The notes under the pieces were generated by a model. It made no database searches, was not told the origin of the DNA, and was given only the letters and a program-made list of their open reading frames with translations. 64,000 nucleotides of DNA from a virus (taxonomy: Duplodnaviria; Caudoviricetes): positions 320,001-384,000 of the IMG/VR virus record IMGVR_UViG_3300037247_001786. One strand, given 5' to 3'. Position numbers and translations under genes: made by a program. Positions 43,364-51,731 of the stretch are shown here, in pieces (position 1 is the stretch's first letter; each line of letters starts with the position of its first letter).

Positions 43364-43678
43364 ATGAATAAAAAAATATGGATAACAAGAAGTCGCAGCC
43401 ATCGATCAGATGGACCAAAATATGTTGTCTCAATATGGTGGATACAAAAACCATTTTGGCACAGTGATGAGAATAATAAATTTTGGTGGTCAACCTGTCT
43501 AGGAGAAAGTGAACTTATATCAACAAAATTAAGTAAACAGTTATTTGGATTAGCACCAAAAGAACATGAAATATATACAGCCGAAGAAACAGATGATGGA
43601 TATAAAATAACACAAAGACAAACAGCAAGAGATTGCTATCGTACTGATGTAGATAGAAAATTAGGTTTGGAATGGTAA
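43364..43678 (+). CDS. Hypothetical Trp-rich protein
   Basis: Co-oriented ORF. Confidence 0.5.
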   Translation: MNKKIWITRSRSHRSDGPKYVVSIWWIQKPFWHSDENNKFWWSTCLGESELISTKLSKQLFGLAPKEHEIYTAEETDDGYKITQRQTARDCYRTDVDRKLGLEW

Positions 43679-43688
43679 AATTTAATAC

Positions 43689-43717
43689 TTGAAAGTGTTT
43701 CCTAAATAAGATATAGT
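43689..43717 (+). promoter_or_regulatory. Sigma70-like promoter
   Basis: TTGAAA GTGTTT...TATAGT. Confidence 0.6.
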
Positions 43718-43838
43718 AGTGACATGAACATATGTGAAATAATTGGAATTGGATGTTTACTAGCAGTTGGAGCAGGAATATTAGCTGGTTTTATAATAAT
43801 GATGGCAGGAATAATGGAAGAAAATAAAAGAGACTGGA

Positions 43839-44114
43839 ATGAATAGACGCAACGAAATAATAATTGGAGCATCTATAATAACTCTTATTGCGATAATCCT
43901 TATGCTGTTAATAAGTTCTGTAAGATCAATGACCCCAAGGTGCCTCGAATGTAAAACTGTATCATATAGTACTGAATACTGCGGTAGTTGCGGAGAGTGG
44001 ATGAACCCTCCATATTGTAAAAAATGCGACAGAAGATATTTTAGCGGTTGTAAAAAAGATAAATACTGTGAGGACTGCGGAGAAGAACTTGTAACCTTGA
44101 CAGAGAAAGAATAA
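43839..44114 (+). CDS. Membrane-anchored double zinc-ribbon protein
   Basis: TM then CLEC..CGSCG..CKKC..CEDCG. Confidence 0.6.
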   Translation: MNRRNEIIIGASIITLIAIILMLLISSVRSMTPRCLECKTVSYSTEYCGSCGEWMNPPYCKKCDRRYFSGCKKDKYCEDCGEELVTLTEKE

Positions 44115-44120
44115 AATAAT

Positions 44121-44414
44121 ATGAACATATATAAACAAAGATGGAACAAGGCTAAACAACTAGCTAACGAGATAAATGATAGGTACGAAAAAGCCATTAA
44201 AGAATATGGCAATAAATGTATCCTCATGTATAGAGAAATACTCGAAGATGCGAATATCGTTATATATGATGATCAAATTATATTACATGTACCTGGAGCT
44301 AATTTTATATTGTTCATAGATGATCCAGAACAAGATATGGGGTCACTCTCAACGATAAAAGAAATAGAAGAACTATTCGATGAAATTAATATACTCGTAC
44401 CATATAAGGGATAG
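44121..44414 (+). CDS. Hypothetical protein
   Basis: Co-oriented ORF. Confidence 0.5.
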   Translation: MNIYKQRWNKAKQLANEINDRYEKAIKEYGNKCILMYREILEDANIVIYDDQIILHVPGANFILFIDDPEQDMGSLSTIKEIEELFDEINILVPYKG

Positions 44415-44417
44415 AAG

Positions 44418-44867
44418 ATGTGCATAGAATATAAATTAACAACAGATAAAAAAAAGAAAATACTTGATAAGATAGGCAGAGAAGGAATAAAAGTCTATAA
44501 GATAGTAAGACATGGAGATTGGGGACACTATCCTATATATCGAAATAAACAAACTCCATATGAAGAAGGAGTAAATACCGCCCAAAGAATACAAATAGTA
44601 TCGTGGGACGCAGTATCGTATATGTCAGGCTTCCATTTCTATATGAACAAATATGCCGCGAAAATGACACTAAAGTATGAATGGGAAGATATGGATGATG
44701 GTTATCAATATAAAATTATAGAGTGTATTGTCAAAAAATCATGGGTGACAACGATAGGAGAAGAATACATTTTTAACGACGATGGAAGATATCAAGATCT
44801 CACCCAAGTTATTATCACTAAAAAAGCTATCTTCCCTGTTTTCGCGGAGAATAAAACATGTGTATAA
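44418..44867 (+). CDS. Paralog family A protein
   Basis: MC...GIKVYKIV...YMSGFHFYMN...IECIVKKSW.T.IG...KKAIFP. Confidence 0.7.
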   Translation: MCIEYKLTTDKKKKILDKIGREGIKVYKIVRHGDWGHYPIYRNKQTPYEEGVNTAQRIQIVSWDAVSYMSGFHFYMNKYAAKMTLKYEWEDMDDGYQYKIIECIVKKSWVTTIGEEYIFNDDGRYQDLTQVIITKKAIFPVFAENKTCV

Positions 44868-45271
44868 ATAGAATAGCAAATAAAGAAAAATGGCTGAAAG
44901 ATAAACCAAAAGTCATAACAGCATATAAAGTAGCAATAGCATGTTATAGTAAAGAACTAGACGTAAGACTATATCCAGTCTTTAATAACGATAAATACTT
45001 TAAAAGAAATAACCTACTCAGAAAAGTTAAATCTGAAAGAAGTGAAAAATACCAACATGTCGATGGATCGAAAAACTCGACATATATAGCATATTACCAC
45101 CTGTTCGCAAAGAGAAAAGACGCAGAGAGACACAGAAACTGGATGGGAGGATCTGTTATAGAATGCACAGTACCAAAAAAATACATAACAGAGATAGGAT
45201 ACCAATACGGACATACAGTAATCGTAACAAGAAAATTCTCCATAGTAGGAGAAGATGAATTCCTAGACTAA
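44858..45271 (+). CDS. Paralog family A-like protein
   Basis: MCI...AYKV...YYHLF..RKDA...IEC.VPKKYITEIG...IVTRKF. Confidence 0.55.
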   Translation: MCINRIANKEKWLKDKPKVITAYKVAIACYSKELDVRLYPVFNNDKYFKRNNLLRKVKSERSEKYQHVDGSKNSTYIAYYHLFAKRKDAERHRNWMGGSVIECTVPKKYITEIGYQYGHTVIVTRKFSIVGEDEFLD

Positions 45272-45305
45272 TTACAGAGAAAGAATACATATAAGGAGAA
45301 TTATA

Positions 45306-45527
45306 ATGATATATATTAAAGAAAAAACAGAAGAATTACTGACAATGACACCAGAACAAGCCAGAGAACTTGCAAAAGAACTTAACTATATGGCTGACGA
45401 AACAGAAGATCATGAATACTCATTTTCAACAGAATTATGGATGGAAGGAAGTTTAACGACGGTTAAACCAATGAAGATTATTATAAAAAATATAGATAAA
45501 AATCCAGAAACACTCTTTCCAAGATAA
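45306..45527 (+). CDS. Hypothetical protein
   Basis: AGGAG RBS. Confidence 0.5.
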   Translation: MIYIKEKTEELLTMTPEQARELAKELNYMADETEDHEYSFSTELWMEGSLTTVKPMKIIIKNIDKNPETLFPR

Positions 45528-45695
45528 ATAGAAAATATGAAACCTATAAAAATAACAAACCCCAAATATAAAGAAATAATAAGAGAACAAACAAAAGAAC
45601 CACTAATACAAAATATAGCAATAGGGTTCGCAGAAGCTCTAAAAGAACTCGGACACAATAACTTCGAAATTATTATAAAAGAATAAGGAAACAGT

Positions 45696-46145
45696 ATGTG
45701 CCTAGAACATAGATTGCCAAAAAATAAAGCAAATAAAATCATAGATAAGATACCACCAGAAGGAATCAAAGTTTATAAAATAGTAAAATGCGGAAGCGTA
45801 CATTACCACCCAATACATAGATATGAATTCGGACCATATAATGAAGGAGTAAATAAAGCACAAACAAAACAAATATCGGCATGGGAAGGGGAAAAATATA
45901 TGGCAGGCTTCCATTTCTATATGAACGAAAAAAACGCTAAATATATACTCAATAAGGAATGGGGAGATTCAGTATATACCTTCAAACTTATAGAGTGCAT
46001 AGTTAAAAAATCGTGGATAACAGCAATAGGACATGAAGTCGTATTTAAAACCGTTCATGGAGATTTCGACGATGTGTATCTTACAACAACAGTCATCGTA
46101 GCAAAAAAAGCCATATTCCCTAAATTTTGCGGAGAAAATAAATAA
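45696..46145 (+). CDS. Paralog family A protein
   Basis: MCL...GIKVYKIV...YMAGFHFYMN...IECIVKKSWITAIG...AKKAIFP. Confidence 0.7.
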   Translation: MCLEHRLPKNKANKIIDKIPPEGIKVYKIVKCGSVHYHPIHRYEFGPYNEGVNKAQTKQISAWEGEKYMAGFHFYMNEKNAKYILNKEWGDSVYTFKLIECIVKKSWITAIGHEVVFKTVHGDFDDVYLTTTVIVAKKAIFPKFCGENK

Positions 46146-47122
46146 TGCTATTTAAAGTATGTATGAGTATAGCCACTATACTATTCTTAATAGTTATAGT
46201 AGTTAATATAGTCTCGTCAATCAAAGAAAAAAAGAAATATGAATATCTCAATGAGAGAGATGATGGATTCACAGGAACAGCGAAAAGATATAGAAAAAAA
46301 CACCCTATTAAAAAATAAGGATAAATATGATAGAAGTAATTAATGAACCAGATGATTGCCCATTCCAGAGAACAGATTATGACGGATTCCCAGATGGATG
46401 TAAGTATGATGAAACTAAATGCTATAATCATAACGAATTCCCAGAGGATTGCCCACTGAATGATGGCGATATTACAGTTACAAAAGGATAAATATGAAAT
46501 GTAAAAAACATCCAAGATATAAAGGGAAAAATAAAGAACAAGCAAAAAATTGCCCAGCCTGTATCTGTATATATATGAATAGACTATTTAAAGAAAAAAG
46601 GGAAAGACAATGAAATGCAAAAAACACCCAAACTATAAAGGAAATGGAAAACCAAGAAATTGTGCAACCTGTCTATGCATACACCTGGAAAAACAACTTA
46701 AAAAAAGTAGAGAAAATAGAGAATAGCTCTTTTTCCCGCGAAAAATAATAAATATAAGGATCAATACAAATGACAATAAACAATATAAACAGAGAAACAG
46801 AAATGGTATATGATAACCTAAAAAGAATAACCAGCAATATACCATCAAAAGATACACTAATAGAAGCAACTGCTAAAATAATGCAAGCTAAAATTATAGC
46901 TGAAGCAATAAGTAACATAAGGAACATAACATGAGGAAAACAAAAGTTATTAAAGCCTCTCCAGCAGCACTCGAACAAAGGATAGATACTTGGATAAAAT
47001 GTAACCCAAGAGCAGAAATAATTAGAACAAGTGCTGCAGCCATAAATGAATACAATGTTCTATATGTGATAATATATGAAGAAAAACCAATATAACACCG
47101 ATACCTCAAATAATTTGCCAGA

Positions 47123-47452
47123 GTGGTAAAAAATGGAATTTATAAGAATATGAAATATAATACTTGTCAAAATCATAAAACTCCTGACCAAATAGAAAAA
47201 GAAGATCATCGCTCTATATATCAAAAAAGATGCCTACTGTCTATAGGAGATAAAATAAAGGCTACTACCGAATTTAGAAAAGTAATGATTGGCTCATATA
47301 GACCAAAAGAACCTGTATTCGAGGGTGGCAAAATCATAGAGTTTAAAGATCCATACGACTCAGATGGAAAAACAGCACACTCATTGGCAAATGTAGAAAT
47401 GCCTTGCGGTTGTACACATCGTATCAATACAGCTTGGCTTGTCAAAATCTAA
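47123..47452 (+). CDS. Hypothetical protein
   Basis: Likely start 47151; CGCTH motif. Confidence 0.45.
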   Translation: MVKNGIYKNMKYNTCQNHKTPDQIEKEDHRSIYQKRCLLSIGDKIKATTEFRKVMIGSYRPKEPVFEGGKIIEFKDPYDSDGKTAHSLANVEMPCGCTHRINTAWLVKI

Positions 47453-48234
47453 CCCTTTTTCGCGAGAAATAAAAATCCCCATTAATAACCCAAAAATCCA
47501 TATAAACTACAATATACACAAGATTAATATATAATGACTACAATACTTAATATAATAGCAACTATAATATATGGACTAATCATATTTAGCGAACACATAT
47601 ATATAAAGATAACACAAAGATAACAATATGAAGAATAAATTCACATGAGGACACGCTAACGACGAATCCAACATAAGACTAAATGGAGAACACTATCTCG
47701 AAATATCTAACTATGGACATACAAAAGAAGTAATAGATAGAGTAGAACATATCACCGAACTACTAAACCAAACAACAACTGCTGATGTAATACCAGAGCC
47801 TCCACAACCTCCACCAAAGAGAGTAATCATAGAGGGAGTAAAGATAATACAAGAATAACAAACAAAGCACAGATCAAACCACAGGGCTTATACCCCCTTA
47901 TCAGAATACCAGTTAATAGCTCAAAAATCAACTATGGCAATCAATAGGGAAAATAATGGAACTAAGTGGTACAGAGTGGTGTAAAAGGGTGAAAAACCCC
48001 ATTATTACCCAAAAACCCAATTAGAGGTCAAAAACCCAATAAATATTGCTCACAAACCTATAACCCAAATATAATAAGAAAAATGCTTATTATTGATACA
48101 CAAGCACCAAATAGGAATATCTTTAAATAATTCTCATCGACCGATCTCGATAAACCGACTCTATTTACCCTTAATATAATAATAAGAATTATTTTTATTC
48201 CTTATATAAAAGTAATGATACACCTTATATCAAG

Positions 48235-48452
48235 TACTATGGCACTCTTTGTCATATTTGCCAGAGTGACAAAAAAACTGTTGTCTGGTATAAGTTGTTT
48301 TCAGTTGCACCAAGTTATTACCACTCTGGCAGTTATTTGATACAATTATTTGCCAGAGTGTGAAAAAACACTTCTTATATATGTAGCAGTCATATATTTT
48401 GTTAAAAACTGTCACTCTGGCACTGTATGGGTCATATTTATTTGCCAGAGTG
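48235..48452. repeat. Iteron-like array of TGCCAGAGTG boxes; probable replication origin
   Basis: + copies at 48259, 48351, 48443 (92-bp period); - copies at 48322, 48413; degenerate - copy at 48235; lies at strand-composition switch. Confidence 0.75.
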
Positions 48453-48482
48453 GTAAAAAGTGCTTTTTATAAGAAATAATAC

Positions 48483-48511
48483 TTGAAAGTGATTTATCAT
48501 TATGATATAAT
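48483..48511 (+). promoter_or_regulatory. Sigma70-like promoter
   Basis: TTGAAA-17-TATAAT, extended -10 TG. Confidence 0.8.
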
Positions 48512-48551
48512 CACGTTCTGTATTTGAGTTTATTTTTTGGAGAGAAAAGTT

Positions 48552-49232
48552 ATGAGTGACGTAGTAAGAGATTATTCAGATGTCAAGGACACAGTAGAGT
48601 TATCTATTGGTGATCGCACCAAGATAACTAATCGCAGAGGAAACGTTATCACTCCTCGCAAATACCATATGGCAGATGATCAGATAGAGGAAGCACGTAA
48701 TCGCTGGAGAGAGTTGATAAAAGATGTTCCTGCTTCTATTCGCCATAAGGCCAGGCGATCGTTCTTTAATCCATTTAGGGTTAATGGTTCTTATTTTGGT
48801 CAAGTTCAAGCACTGTATCTACTTGGTGCTAATGAGTGGCATACTTACTCATCTGTTCGTGGTAAGATGCAGGAGGACATGAGTACCCGTAAGAGTCCTC
48901 TCAACACTTTGAATAGTTGGGAGAAATTTGCTACTAGGAGTGCTCGTGAGGGAGCTACTTCTACTAAAGATTTAATGGGTAGAATAGTTAGTAACTTCCG
49001 TACTCTTCAGCGTTTAGGTGGCACTAACCCTTATGGTTATAAGCTTAAGCAGTTGTTATCGAGTGTTGATGCTCGTCGTAGAGTGGATAGTATTTGGGAG
49101 TTTAGGTTAGATACTACTTGGACTGATATGGACTTGGTTAAGCCTTTTTATGATATATCTGCTTATGTTGTTCCTAAAGGTAAGAAGGTTGATACTGTAG
49201 TAGTTTCTACAGATGTTCCAGTTGTTGACTGA
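48552..49232 (+). CDS. Hypothetical basic protein adjacent to putative origin
   Basis: ATG with GGAGAG RBS; R/K-rich. Confidence 0.65.
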   Translation: MSDVVRDYSDVKDTVELSIGDRTKITNRRGNVITPRKYHMADDQIEEARNRWRELIKDVPASIRHKARRSFFNPFRVNGSYFGQVQALYLLGANEWHTYSSVRGKMQEDMSTRKSPLNTLNSWEKFATRSAREGATSTKDLMGRIVSNFRTLQRLGGTNPYGYKLKQLLSSVDARRRVDSIWEFRLDTTWTDMDLVKPFYDISAYVVPKGKKVDTVVVSTDVPVVD

Positions 49233-50891: not shown

Positions 50892-51731
50892 TTGTATAAT
50901 AAATATGCGGAGAGAGAAATGTACCAATCGTTAAATAGTATAAAATATGTAGAAGTATCCCGTTTATCGACTGGTATACCTGAATTAGATTGGATATATG
51001 GAGGAGATGGTACTAATGTAGGTCTCCCTCAAGGTAAGATAAGTTTATGGAGTGGTCCATCAGGTTGTGGTAAGAGTAGGTCATTAATTACTCTTTCTAA
51101 GAAAATGAGTTCCGCTGGTCATAACGTTCTTTACTTTCAGAATGAAGTTAATTTGAGTGATTTTCGTTCTTGGGCAGGCAATGAACCCTTGGCTCCGAAT
51201 CTTTATGCATCGGATACAACTACTTTGGCTGGACAAGTAGATGAGATAACGAAGAGCAAAGCAAGAGTTGCTATCATTGATAGTATCGGATTGATTAAGG
51301 AATTCAAGACAGGACATGAGACTAATGTAAGAAACATTTATGCTCATTACCGTGCATTAACTAAAAAGACTGGTGTTCATGTTATCTTTGTTTGTCAGTT
51401 GAATAGTAATTATAAGATAAAAGGTTCATCTGAAATCCTGTATTTAGCTGATATTTCAGTTGATTTAGACAGGCATGTAGTTAATAAGAAGATAATTAAG
51501 AACCACTTTGTGATAGGCATCAATGGTCGTAATGGTGGTAAACATCGTTATGGCGAGATGGGCGATGACATAACTACTCTTTGGAGGTATTCTCCTGGTG
51601 GAGCTATATGTATCTCTAATAATAGGGGATCCTCTGATATAGTTCCTTATGGTCATATTGATAAAAAGGTAGTTGATACTGTTTCTGGATCTACTTTCTT
51701 TGTGCCGAAACTAAATTTTAAATTTGCTTGA
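50892..51731 (+). CDS. RadA/Sms-like RecA-fold ATPase lacking Zn finger and Lon-like domain
   Basis: STGIPELDWIYGG, GPSGCGKS, IIDSI, G.....YLAD, KHRYG (cf. KNRFG). Confidence 0.8.
   Translation: MYNKYAEREMYQSLNSIKYVEVSRLSTGIPELDWIYGGDGTNVGLPQGKISLWSGPSGCGKSRSLITLSKKMSSAGHNVLYFQNEVNLSDFRSWAGNEPLAPNLYASDTTTLAGQVDEITKSKARVAIIDSIGLIKEFKTGHETNVRNIYAHYRALTKKTGVHVIFVCQLNSNYKIKGSSEILYLADISVDLDRHVVNKKIIKNHFVIGINGRNGGKHRYGEMGDDITTLWRYSPGGAICISNNRGSSDIVPYGHIDKKVVDTVSGSTFFVPKLNFKFA

What the first reader, a model, noticed from the sequence alone, without database searches (positions are those of the whole stretch)
47400..48520. Probable replication origin: 92-bp periodic inverted box pairs at a strand-skew flip
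Seen: TGCCAGAGTG on + at 48259, 48351, 48443 (exactly 92 apart) and on - at 48322, 48413 (plus degenerate 48235), forming inverted pairs with 14-20-bp spacers. By eye, upstream DNA (about 43-48 kb) is strongly A/C-rich and downstream DNA (48.5-51.7 kb) T/G-rich although genes on both sides are on +, so the flip is not coding bias. An imperfect ~28-bp repeat (AAAAA[T]CCCCATTA.TA[A]CCCAAAAA) occurs at ~47470 and ~47992. Established: a C-rich to G-rich switch marks bidirectional origins. The basic 48552 protein is a candidate initiator (inference).
Basis: partly seen in the sequence, partly recalled or inferred. Interest (0 to 1): 0.7.

Follow-up and report, generated by a model that had tools for sequence, protein, structure and literature searches.

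The report
Candidate replication origin, huge phage
A gene-free control region of a 461-kb marine-sediment phage holds alternating, evenly phased copies of the phage's own promoter box exactly where the DNA strands swap base composition most sharply, in this phage and 12 relatives, so it is a good but unproven candidate for a DNA replication start site.

Summary
TGCCAGAGTG sits at 48259, 48351 and 48443 (+) and at 48322 and 48413 (-), with a 92-bp period. The sharpest switch from A+C-rich to G+T-rich DNA in the whole 461-kb genome falls on this cluster.

Two points change the reading.
- The box is not specific to an origin. It is the -35-like part of a private promoter class: 56 + copies genome-wide, nearly all just upstream of genes.
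- The switch is local, about 6 kb on the left. The whole-genome cumulative GC and AT skew minima lie 321 kb away.

The origin idea still gains support from relatives.
- In about 20 related phage contigs the same gene-free region carries each lineage's own box in the same alternating layout, with gaps of about 30, 62 and 92 bp.
- In 12 other loci (about ten distinct lineages), third-codon-position composition also reverses at the cluster, although the genes to the left mostly differ between loci.
- The downstream 226-aa protein heads a large orphan family. It is predicted confidently, looks weakly winged-helix-like, and has an invariant host-type promoter.

Best reading (about 0.5): a promoter-built replication start site with T4 oriF/oriG logic. 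Main rival (about 0.3): a purely transcriptional control hub. No coverage or RNA data could be obtained. The scan has not reported this element on other DNA.

The parts
47453..48536 (.). Gene-free control region between the last small gene of the left block and the 226-aa protein gene
   Evidence: No ORF of 40 aa or more under table 11 apart from short ORFs that overlap the boxes. The layout of its right 650 bp is conserved in 8 aligned lineages. No Rfam match.
47469..47498 (+). First copy of the imperfect ~30-nt A5-CCCCATTA-ACCCAAAAA repeat
   Evidence: the repeat finder families D2/D3. With the second copy it brackets about 0.5 kb that is absent from relatives, whose gaps are about 0.7 kb.
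47925..48020 (+). Conserved block: about six (A/G)TGG motifs 9-13 bp apart, then CCCCATTATTACCCAAAAAC (the second repeat copy)
   Evidence: Near-invariant columns in alignment A2. No consensus RNA fold and no covariation.
48133..48155 (+). Conserved CATCGACC..TCGATAAAC element (5-bp inverted repeat ATCGA/TCGAT)
   Evidence: Invariant CATCGACC in 8 lineages and present in distant L028. This is the only + strand copy in the genome.
48100..48250 (.). Most A+T-rich stretch next to the boxes (73-76% A+T)
   Evidence: 100-bp composition profile; the genome mean is 66% A+T.
48259..48268 (+). Box 1 (+), without a -10 element
   Evidence: No TTATAG-like hexamer 14 nt downstream in any lineage.
48322..48331 (-). 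Inverted box 1 (-)
   Evidence: No -10 at the class spacing.
48351..48380 (+). Box 2 (+) with TTATAT 14 nt downstream: promoter P2 of the private class
   Evidence: Matches the class consensus TGCCAGAGTG-N14-TTATAG. The -10-like element is kept in 7 of 8 aligned lineages.
48413..48422 (-). Inverted box 2 (-)
   Evidence: Only a weak TATATG, 1 nt out of register.
48443..48472 (+). Box 3 (+) with TTATAA 14 nt downstream: promoter P3
48483..48511 (+). Host-type promoter TTGAAA-17-TATAAT with TG extension
   Evidence: 11 of 12 consensus match. TTG.A.GTG and TG.TATAATCAC are invariant in 8 lineages.
48552..49232 (+). 226-aa conserved orphan protein, possibly winged-helix
   Evidence: No Pfam, PHROG, NCBIfam or PDB sequence match. 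More than 100 close homologues and 331 clusters at 50% identity. AlphaFold model pLDDT 88.8. Structural neighbours are winged-helix domains, at only Z 4.5-5.8.
50892..51731 (+). 279-aa RecA-superfamily ATPase (KaiC / AAA_25 / RadA-like; best PHROG is DnaB-like helicase), syntenic in close relatives
   Evidence: synteny. The structure model was too poor to use.
43364..47452 (+). Left zone of reversed third-position composition (A3-rich small genes)
   Evidence: keto3 -0.13 to -0.48 per gene.
47116..47125 (+). Ordinary box promoter in front of the last left-hand gene

Best explanation
The 1.1-kb gene-free stretch is a conserved cis-acting region of a group of huge marine-sediment phages. I think it most likely marks a place where replication forks start and move apart.

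Layout: three rightward and two leftward copies of the 10-bp box that elsewhere serves as the -35-like part of the phage's private promoters. Neighbouring copies lie about 30 and 62 bp apart, with a 92-bp period (3, 6 and 9 helical turns), so all face one side of the DNA.

Proposed working:
1. The factor that reads the box, with or without RNA polymerase, assembles on this phased array.
2. Promoters P2 and P3 fire into A+T-rich DNA.
3. The opened DNA or the transcript lets the replisome start. This is the logic of T4 oriF/oriG (activator-dependent promoter plus unwinding element).
4. Leftward forks run only a few kb.

Shown here: the array, its conservation with lineage-specific boxes, and the mirror-image reversal of synonymous-site composition at this point in many lineages.

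Inferred: that the reversal reflects fork direction, that the boxes nucleate initiation, and that the 226-aa early protein takes part.
For: 1. The largest G+T/A+C jump in 461 kb falls on the cluster, and the cumulative G+T minimum for 340-400 kb is at genome 368,278, inside it.

2. The reversal is at synonymous sites and is close to mirror-symmetric for A and T. Window 4-fold sites: left A .57 / T .21, right A .24 / T .57. Pooled over 12 loci: left A .48 C .17 G .07 T .28, right A .29 C .11 G .10 T .50; G and C mirror only partly. Two-fold codons shift the same way. Sense transcription runs rightward on both sides, so it cannot invert the bias.

3. The same reversal occurs in 12 other loci (about ten distinct lineages), although most genes to the left are not homologous between loci. 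In roughly two thirds of the loci with enough flank, the largest jump lies within about 1.3 kb of the gene start. In L005 the cluster sits 4.5 kb upstream of the 226-aa gene, and the jump goes with the cluster, not the gene.

4. About 20 contigs keep alternating boxes with a 91-94-bp period (61 bp in two lineages). The box sequence itself differs by lineage (TGCCAGAGTG, TCCAGAGGTG, CACCAGACA, TTCCAGAC, CTCAGACG and others).

5. The - copies lack a -10 element, so they act as binding sites rather than promoters.

6. The region also holds other conserved repeats and an A+T-rich tract. The distant relative L007 has GCACCGAA direct repeats 22-23 bp apart.

7. In three real minus-strand gene islands, third-position bias follows the DNA strand rather than the gene's strand. 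This points to a strand-linked mutational cause of skew in this genome.

8. T4 precedent: oriF and oriG are each a MotA-box promoter plus an unwinding element, T4 origins share no common motif, and three of them lie at compositional shifts (PMC3016281).
Against: - The switch is local. To the left the bias fades within about 6 kb, while the global minima of cumulative GC and AT skew are at genome 47.2 kb.
- The box is an ordinary promoter element at about 53 other sites.
- The two next-largest jumps (428.6 and 96.7 kb) have no box cluster, so such jumps do not need the boxes.
- Replisome genes lie 100-180 kb away. The nearby ATPase is only a generic RecA-fold protein.
- The minus-strand islands and the left zone could instead share an A3-rich 'gene class' codon usage.
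- The amplitude of the 4-fold-site A/T bias is larger than usual for replication skew (my own knowledge).
- No DnaA boxes.
Confidence: 0.5

Rival explanations
1. A transcriptional control hub only. The cluster would be the head of the private-promoter regulon. Tandem promoters P2 and P3 boost the early 226-aa gene in the middle phase. The inverted boxes would be operator or decoy sites for the box-reading factor (a phage sigma or a MotA-like activator, possibly the 226-aa protein itself). They would give autoregulation or DNA looping. Replication does not start here, and the composition switch has another cause, such as codon usage of gene classes or selection at the mRNA level.
For: - The box plus TTATAG-like hexamer is a promoter class: 47 of 53 copies are intergenic, and at about 35 of 53 copies the next called ORF starts 30-80 nt downstream (at seven more, a start called inside the box is a caller artefact).
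- P2 is conserved as a promoter.
- The cluster sits about 110 bp upstream of the same conserved gene in about 20 contigs.
- That gene has an invariant host-type promoter, as expected of an early regulator.
- Cluster boxes and array boxes change together in each lineage.
- Skew jumps also occur without boxes, at the array's far end.
Against: - It does not explain a near mirror-image reversal at 4-fold sites and in both two-fold codon classes.
- It does not explain why the reversal recurs beside non-homologous left-hand genes.
- It does not explain the A/C-rich non-coding left part of the gap.
- In L005 the cluster is detached from the gene yet keeps the jump.
- The predicted recognition helix of the 226-aa family is almost invariant while the box flanks differ.
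Confidence: 0.3
2. Divergent hyper-transcription. Strong rightward promoters and an unrecognised leftward promoter in the gap would expose opposite strands on the two sides, and transcription-linked mutation would create the mirror-image bias without any fork initiation.
For: - The bias decays with distance on both sides, as read-through transcription would.
- There is a leftward TTGACA-16-TACGAT match at 47445-47418.
- Box 48413 (-) has a weak TATATG.
Against: - No - box carries the class -10 in any lineage.
- No conserved leftward promoter appears in the 8-lineage alignment.
- Antisense transcription would have to outweigh sense transcription over 4-6 kb of real genes.
- Elsewhere in this genome third-position bias follows the DNA strand rather than the gene strand.
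Confidence: 0.08
3. Another DNA transaction site: a centromere-like partition site, a dimer-resolution site or a packaging site. The phased inverted boxes would bind a segregation, recombination or terminase protein.
For: Phased inverted repeats on one helical face are typical of such nucleoprotein sites (my own knowledge). TubR, a partition winged-helix protein, is among the weak structural neighbours.
Against: - No ParA/ParB, recombinase or terminase gene lies nearby.
- The boxes are promoter elements elsewhere.
- None of these functions predicts a strand-composition reversal.
- The 110-bp end repeat of the record is an assembly overlap, so it says nothing about packaging here.
Confidence: 0.05
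4. RNA-level hairpins. The box and inverted-box pairs would matter as 10-bp stems in leader transcripts (attenuators or small RNAs) rather than as DNA sites.
For: - Each unit folds as a long hairpin, with z-scores -2.1 to -5.6.
- Both arms change together between lineages.
Against: - The interiors of the hairpins are not conserved in structure.
- Arm differences beyond the shared core are not compensated; for example L001 TCCAGAGTC faces TCCAGAGGT.
- The same change of box occurs at dozens of unpaired promoter copies.
- There is no Rfam match.
- Box 1 lies upstream of the first promoter of the cluster.
Confidence: 0.04

Closest known systems
Bacteriophage T4 oriF (uvsY) and oriG (gene 34): MotA-dependent middle promoter plus downstream unwinding element, primed by an R-loop (Kreuzer & Brister 2010, PMC3016281)
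   Same: - A phage-specific promoter with a factor box around -30 and a sigma-70-like -10; here the box spans about -37 to -28 if TATAGT is the -10.
- A+T-rich DNA lies beside it.
- The same box also drives many ordinary genes.
- Several candidate start sites per genome share no common motif, and some lie at compositional shifts.
   Different: - Here the boxes are multiplied and alternate in orientation with a fixed period of about 92 bp.
- No MotA homologue was found.
- The reversed zone on the left is only a few kb.
- Nothing has been shown experimentally.
T4 oriE with its 12-nt iterons and the early genes repEA/repEB; lambda ori with O protein; iteron plasmids such as the R6K gamma origin (PMC3016281; my own knowledge for lambda)
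   Same: Repeated short sites sit next to an early gene for a small protein that could bind them, with an early host-type promoter.
   Different: - Iterons are direct repeats about one to two helical turns apart and are specific to the origin.
- These boxes are 10 bp, alternate in orientation, lie 3, 6 and 9 turns apart, and occur at more than 50 promoters.
Archaeal oriC with inverted origin recognition boxes flanking an A+T-rich element, bound by Orc1/Cdc6 through a winged helix (my own knowledge; PDB 2qby appears)
   Same: Inverted recognition boxes face each other across an A+T-rich spacer of about 53 bp. Winged-helix domains of Orc1/Cdc6 are among the weak structural neighbours of the 226-aa protein.
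   Different: The 226-aa protein has no AAA+ module, the structural match is weak (Z about 5.5), and there is no sequence relationship.
Phage-specific promoter arrays or regulatory cassettes in hyperplastic regions of T4-type phages
   Same: The + boxes belong to such an array: about one per kb over 60 kb, each in front of a small gene.
   Different: The inverted copies, the fixed phasing and the composition reversal are features of this one site only.

Membership tests
Skew-defined bidirectional origin (bacterial type) | Global extremum of cumulative GC skew at the site | tested here: not met
   The global minima of cumulative GC and AT skew are at genome 47,184-47,248. At 368.2 kb the GC curve dips by only about 55 counts.
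Skew-defined bidirectional origin (bacterial type) | Polarity switch of strand composition at synonymous sites: amino-rich to the left, keto-rich to the right | tested here: met
   It is the largest jump in the genome, close to mirror-symmetric at 4-fold sites, and conserved in 12 other loci, but it is local.
Iteron-type origin (lambda, R6K, P1, T4 oriE) | Tandem direct repeats one to two helical turns apart that are specific to the origin | tested here: not met
   The boxes alternate in orientation, have a 92-bp period, and occur at 53 other promoter sites.
Iteron-type origin (lambda, R6K, P1, T4 oriE) | Adjacent gene for the initiator that binds the repeats | tested here: inconclusive
   The adjacent conserved early gene encodes a protein with winged-helix-like structural neighbours at Z 4.5-5.8 only. 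Binding was not testable.
T4 oriF/oriG-type origin | Factor-dependent phage promoter (box near -30, sigma-70-like -10) | tested here: met
   P2 and P3 match the class consensus TGCCAGAGTG-N14-TTATA(G/T/A) at sequence level. P2 is conserved in relatives.
T4 oriF/oriG-type origin | Downstream unwinding element, persistent R-loop, and replication start | not testable with these tools
   Only a modest A+T enrichment (73-76% against 66%) was seen, and it lies upstream of the boxes. No raw reads or RNA runs were available.
Private promoter class of this phage | Box followed after 14 nt by a TTATAG-like hexamer, directly upstream of a gene on the same strand | tested here: met
   Met for + boxes 2 and 3. 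Not met for + box 1 or for either - box.
Winged-helix DNA-binding proteins | Helix-turn-helix plus beta-hairpin wing fold with a clear structural match | tested here: inconclusive
   Foldseek found no match at E <= 0.001. VIA-align rows are almost all winged-helix domains but at Z 4.5-5.8, below the level that excludes a merely common arrangement.
Replicative or loader helicase next to the origin (DnaB / RepA type) | The 279-aa ATPase is a hexameric helicase | tested here: inconclusive
   It has a RecA-fold core with weak hits to KaiC, AAA_25, RadA and the DnaB C-terminal domain. The model, at pLDDT 45.7, is unusable.
Structured non-coding RNA | Rfam match, or a conserved fold with covariation | tested here: not met
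   No Rfam match at E <= 1. The consensus fold is -3.35 kcal/mol with no compensatory pairs.

The most novel reading that the evidence does not exclude
A so far undescribed kind of phage origin. In it, the -35-like box of a private promoter class doubles as the origin-recognition element. Alternating copies at 3, 6 and 9 helical turns would assemble a complex, with the orphan 226-aa winged-helix-like family as initiator or activator. This complex would fire repeatedly and leave an unusually strong, short-range, mirror-image mutational footprint. The footprint could then serve as a purely computational marker of start sites in uncultured huge phages.
Probability: 0.3. Interest if true: 0.8.

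Novelty: new variant of a known kind. Interest (0 to 1): 0.62.

Why it matters
I know of no study that maps where uncultured huge phages start copying their DNA, and two literature searches here found none. The global skew curves used for them are confounded by one-directional gene order.

This site offers a concrete target conserved across many lineages:
- a defined 220-bp array;
- a large orphan protein family beside it (331 clusters at 50% identity);
- a sequence-only signature, namely a local, near mirror-image reversal at synonymous sites that recurs whatever the neighbouring genes are.

If the reversal does mark fork initiation, it would allow origins to be mapped in metagenomic phage genomes. 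It would also show promoter boxes being reused as origin elements beyond T4. If it does not, then a strong strand-specific mutational or selective process tied to a transcription hub still needs an explanation.

Tried and rejected
- **Tandem Repeats Finder:** it gave no 92-bp array, because only the boxes repeat.
- **Other genetic codes:** under TGA=W or TAG=Q the gap stays non-coding, apart from one 76-codon frame with a single TGA. That frame has no homologue in the genome or in any fetched locus.
- **RNA explanations:** Rfam gave only tRNAs at gathering level and nothing in the gap at E <= 1. The conserved block has no consensus fold. The hairpin interiors of the units are not conserved.
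- **DnaA boxes:** none in the gap, and fewer in the window than chance.
- **GenBank phages:** no DNA or protein match.
- **IMG/VR:** the single protein found nothing. The family alignment found two loci.
- **Annotation of the 226-aa protein:** the ESM Atlas, a PDB profile search and Foldseek gave nothing usable. Longer family members carry no Pfam domain.
- **ATPase structure:** the AlphaFold model had pLDDT 45.7 and was not searched.
- **Sequencing runs:** only Logan contigs are held and no RNA holder is listed. So neither a coverage test nor an expression test was possible, and read laying was not used.
- **GCACCGAAT motif:** it is repeated 4-7 times in the gaps of relatives but is nearly absent from this genome's gap.
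- **Other skew jumps:** the two lesser jumps (428.6 and 96.7 kb) have no box cluster.
- **Earlier scan notes:** no look-alike stretch in other genomes of the scan.
Full report
**Setting.** The window is bases 320,001-384,000 of a single 460,978-bp virus record with 34% G+C. Its 110-bp end repeat is an assembly overlap, so the map is circular and the coordinates are arbitrary. Nearly all genes are on +, except for a block at 10-47 kb and a few islands. The window holds 29 tRNA genes at 53-64 kb. Earlier scan notes describe the genome as a marine-sediment huge phage. The one run that holds the stretch in full is a marine sediment metagenome.

**Check of the observation.**
- Exact TGCCAGAGTG lies at 48259, 48351 and 48443 (+) and at 48322 and 48413 (-). 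The periods are 92 and 91 bp, and the head-to-head spacers are 19 and 20 bp.
- The window has 16 matches with up to 1 mismatch, against 1.8 expected.
- The claimed degenerate copy at 48235 lies in a block that relatives conserve whatever their own box is, so I do not count it.
- The ~28-nt repeat is real but imperfect. Its two copies bracket about 0.5 kb that relatives lack. That stretch includes a 76-codon frame with one TGA and no homologue.

**What the box is.** The genome has 56 exact + copies and 3 - copies.
- 55 of the + copies lie between 367,116 and 427,508, about one per 0.93 kb.
- The 53 copies outside the cluster give the consensus taAtTTGCCAGAGTG..aAAAAat..a..TTATAg.atTgT.
- 47 of these 53 are intergenic. 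At about 35 of them the next called ORF starts 30-80 nt downstream; at seven more, a start called inside the box is an artefact of my crude ORF caller.
- I therefore read the box as the upstream element of a private promoter class. If TATAGT is the -10, the box spans about -37 to -28. Earlier notes e1-5376708 and e1-5376725 reached the same reading on the neighbouring window, and I confirmed it independently.
- It follows that the boxes are not origin-specific iterons.
- In the cluster, + boxes 2 and 3 have the hexamer at the class spacing (TTATAT, TTATAA). Box 1 and both - boxes do not.
- Two of the three - copies in the whole genome are here. The third heads a minus-strand gene.

**The composition switch.**
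- The jump from A+C-rich to G+T-rich DNA at genome 368,150-368,250 is the largest in the genome for half-windows of 1 to 6 kb, about 7 sd.
- The cumulative G+T curve has its 340-400-kb minimum at 368,278, inside the cluster.
- The jump is largest at third codon positions (left A3 .50 / T3 .26; right A3 .26 / T3 .45) and at 4-fold sites (left A .57 / T .21; right A .24 / T .57).
- Two-fold codons shift the same way. Pooled over loci, the C share of Y-ending codons is .30 on the left and .17 on the right, and the G share of R-ending codons is .14 and .43.
- The right side is therefore close to the reverse complement of the left side for A and T, and partly so for G and C. That is what a strand-asymmetric process of inverted polarity gives. 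Amino-acid content or sense transcription would not give it, because the genes on both sides are on +.
- Limits: the reversed zone on the left spans only about 6 kb. Overall GC skew stays positive at a distance. The global cumulative GC and AT minima are at 47.2 kb, in a divergent early-promoter gap next to a sigma-70-family gene.
- Two weaker jumps, at 428.6 kb (the far end of the promoter array) and at 96.7 kb, have no box cluster.

**Relatives.** The 226-aa protein has more than 100 close homologues. I fetched about 90 loci.
- In close relatives the order is conserved: small genes, a 0.7-1.25-kb gap, the homologue, small genes, a RecA-like ATPase, then the tRNA region.
- In about 20 contigs, the gap ends about 110 bp before the gene with alternating + and - boxes. 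The period is 91-94 bp, or 61 bp in two lineages, with sub-spacings near 30 and 62 bp.
- The box differs by lineage: TCCAGAGGTG, TTCCAGAGT, CACCAGACA, TTCCAGAC, TTGCCAGA, CTCAGACGGTG. Most keep a CCAGA core and a GTGAAAA-like tail with a linker of varying length.
- In each lineage the + and - cluster boxes match that lineage's array promoters.
- An alignment of eight lineages shows that the whole 650 bp is conserved in layout. In order it holds a block of (A/G)TGG motifs about 10 bp apart followed by CCCATTTTAACCCAAAAAC, an invariant CATCGACC..TCGAT element, the boxes, and an invariant TTGAAAGTG...TGnTATAAT promoter.
- Relatives also carry 4-7 GCACCGAAT repeats, spaced 22-23 bp in L007. This genome has almost lost them.

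**The switch in relatives.** In 12 other loci, third-position G+T excess is -0.06 to -0.28 to the left of the cluster and +0.10 to +0.40 to the right.
- Some loci come from the same phage group, so these represent about ten distinct lineages. The 4-fold-site pattern agrees.
- Most left-hand genes are not homologous between loci. L007, L005 and L028 share none with the others.
- At 35-65% protein identity, synonymous sites should be saturated (inference). The bias must then be renewed in each lineage by a process tied to this position.
- In roughly two thirds of the loci with at least 3 kb on both sides, the largest jump lies within about 1.3 kb of the gene start.
- In L005 a reduced cluster (one inverted pair plus a second direct copy) lies 4.5 kb upstream of the gene, and the jump goes with the cluster.

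**The neighbouring proteins.**
- The 226-aa protein matches nothing in Pfam, PHROGs, NCBIfam, PDB sequences or GenBank phages. Its family has 331 clusters at 50% identity and shows no fused Pfam domains.
- Its AlphaFold model is confident (pLDDT 88.8).
- Foldseek finds no clear match. VIA-align returns almost only winged-helix domains (Orc1/Cdc6, OmpR/PhoB, Fur, histone H1) at Z 4.5-5.8. That is a hint, not a classification.
- Its predicted helix at residues 141-153 is nearly invariant across the family. It is therefore more likely to read something constant (the CCAGA core, CATCGACC or GCACCGAAT) than the lineage-specific flanks. This is inference.
- The 279-aa ATPase has a generic RecA-fold core, and its model was unusable.
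- DnaB lies at 189 kb. According to earlier scan notes that I did not check, the split DnaE and the clamp loader lie near 204 and 265 kb.

**Interpretation.** Three facts have to be explained together.
1. The boxes are promoter elements.
2. At this one site they alternate in orientation with fixed helical phasing, and the inverted copies are not promoters.
3. The site is the centre of a conserved, near mirror-image, short-range reversal of synonymous composition.

Fork divergence accounts for the third fact with the correct polarity. It also agrees with the minus-strand islands, whose third-position bias follows the DNA strand rather than the gene strand. T4 supplies a mechanism that accounts for the first two. 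oriF and oriG are each an activator-box promoter plus an unwinding element, T4 origins share no motif, and three of them lie at compositional shifts (PMC3016281).

I therefore favour a promoter-built initiation site, probably one of several in the genome, at about 0.5. The short leftward reach could mean that leftward forks are short-lived or meet rightward forks early. I cannot test this.

The main rival, at about 0.3, is a purely transcriptional hub with operator or decoy boxes. It explains the first two facts but not the third. The other rivals are divergent hyper-transcription, another DNA-transaction site, and RNA hairpins. They are weaker for the reasons given under each.

**Caveats.**
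- An A3-rich 'gene class' could mimic a strand effect, both in the islands and in the left zone.
- The amplitude of the bias is unusually large for replication skew (my own knowledge).
- No coverage, RNA or binding data were obtainable.

Noticed in passing
window 47628-47858 (+): A 76-codon frame with a protein-like sequence (it ends in a PEPPQPPPK stretch) is interrupted by one in-frame TGA. It has no start codon after the TGA. It has no homologue in the genome or in any fetched locus. It lies in the 0.5 kb that only this lineage has, between the two copies of the ~30-nt repeat. It may be a decayed gene or a read-through gene.
   Followed up: partly
genome 47,041-47,262 (L010:7041-7262): The global minima of cumulative GC and AT skew fall in a 220-bp A+T-rich gap with back-to-back TTGAAAGTG-type promoters. 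The gap lies between a GIY-YIG/NUMOD endonuclease gene (-) and a sigma-70-family gene (+). This is a second candidate replication start.
   Followed up: partly
genome 428,336-428,720 (L008:4336-4720) and about 96,100-96,900 (L009): These are the second and third largest strand-composition jumps. The first lies at the far end of the 60-kb promoter array, in a gap with two TTGAAAG motifs, and is preceded by about 13 kb of falling G+T excess. Neither jump has an inverted box cluster.
   Followed up: partly
whole genome; in the window for example 48483: TTGAAAGTG, a -35 hexamer with a 3-nt extension, occurs 27 times on + and 10 times on -. The - copies lie mostly in the minus-strand block. This marks a second, host-like promoter class that is invariant in front of the 226-aa gene in 8 lineages.
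   Followed up: partly
L007:4100-4470; L003:9311-9842; L004:1132-1773: GCACCGAAT direct repeats, 4-7 per gap and all on +, are shared by lineages whose promoter boxes differ. In L007 four copies lie 15-23 bp apart, like iterons. One copy sits inside most 92-bp units. In this genome the motif is almost lost (48104 and 48307 are weak copies).
   Followed up: partly
window 48133-48155 and the homologous sites in L001, L003, L004, L013, L017, L019, L023 and L028: An invariant CATCGACC followed by TCGAT (a short inverted repeat) lies about 190-400 bp upstream of the 226-aa gene. It could be the constant target of that protein's near-invariant helix.
   Followed up: no
relatives L003, L013, L020, L022 and others against the window: The lineage-specific boxes look like two constant halves, CCAGA and GTGAAAA, joined by a linker of 0-2 nt (CCAGA-GTG, CCAGAG-GTG, CCAGAGG-GTG, TCAGACG-GTG). 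The promoter class may therefore diversify by changing the spacing between the halves.
   Followed up: no
genome 105-109 kb, 226-228 kb and 448-451 kb: Minus-strand gene islands (ORFs of 146-401 aa) are A3-rich on their own strand. The + strand therefore stays T-rich at third positions whatever the gene orientation.
   Followed up: partly
genome ends (1-110 and 460,869-460,978): The 'direct terminal repeat' of the record is a 110-bp exact overlap that is itself two copies of a 55-mer. It looks like an assembly overlap inside a repetitive coding region rather than a physical genome end.
   Followed up: no
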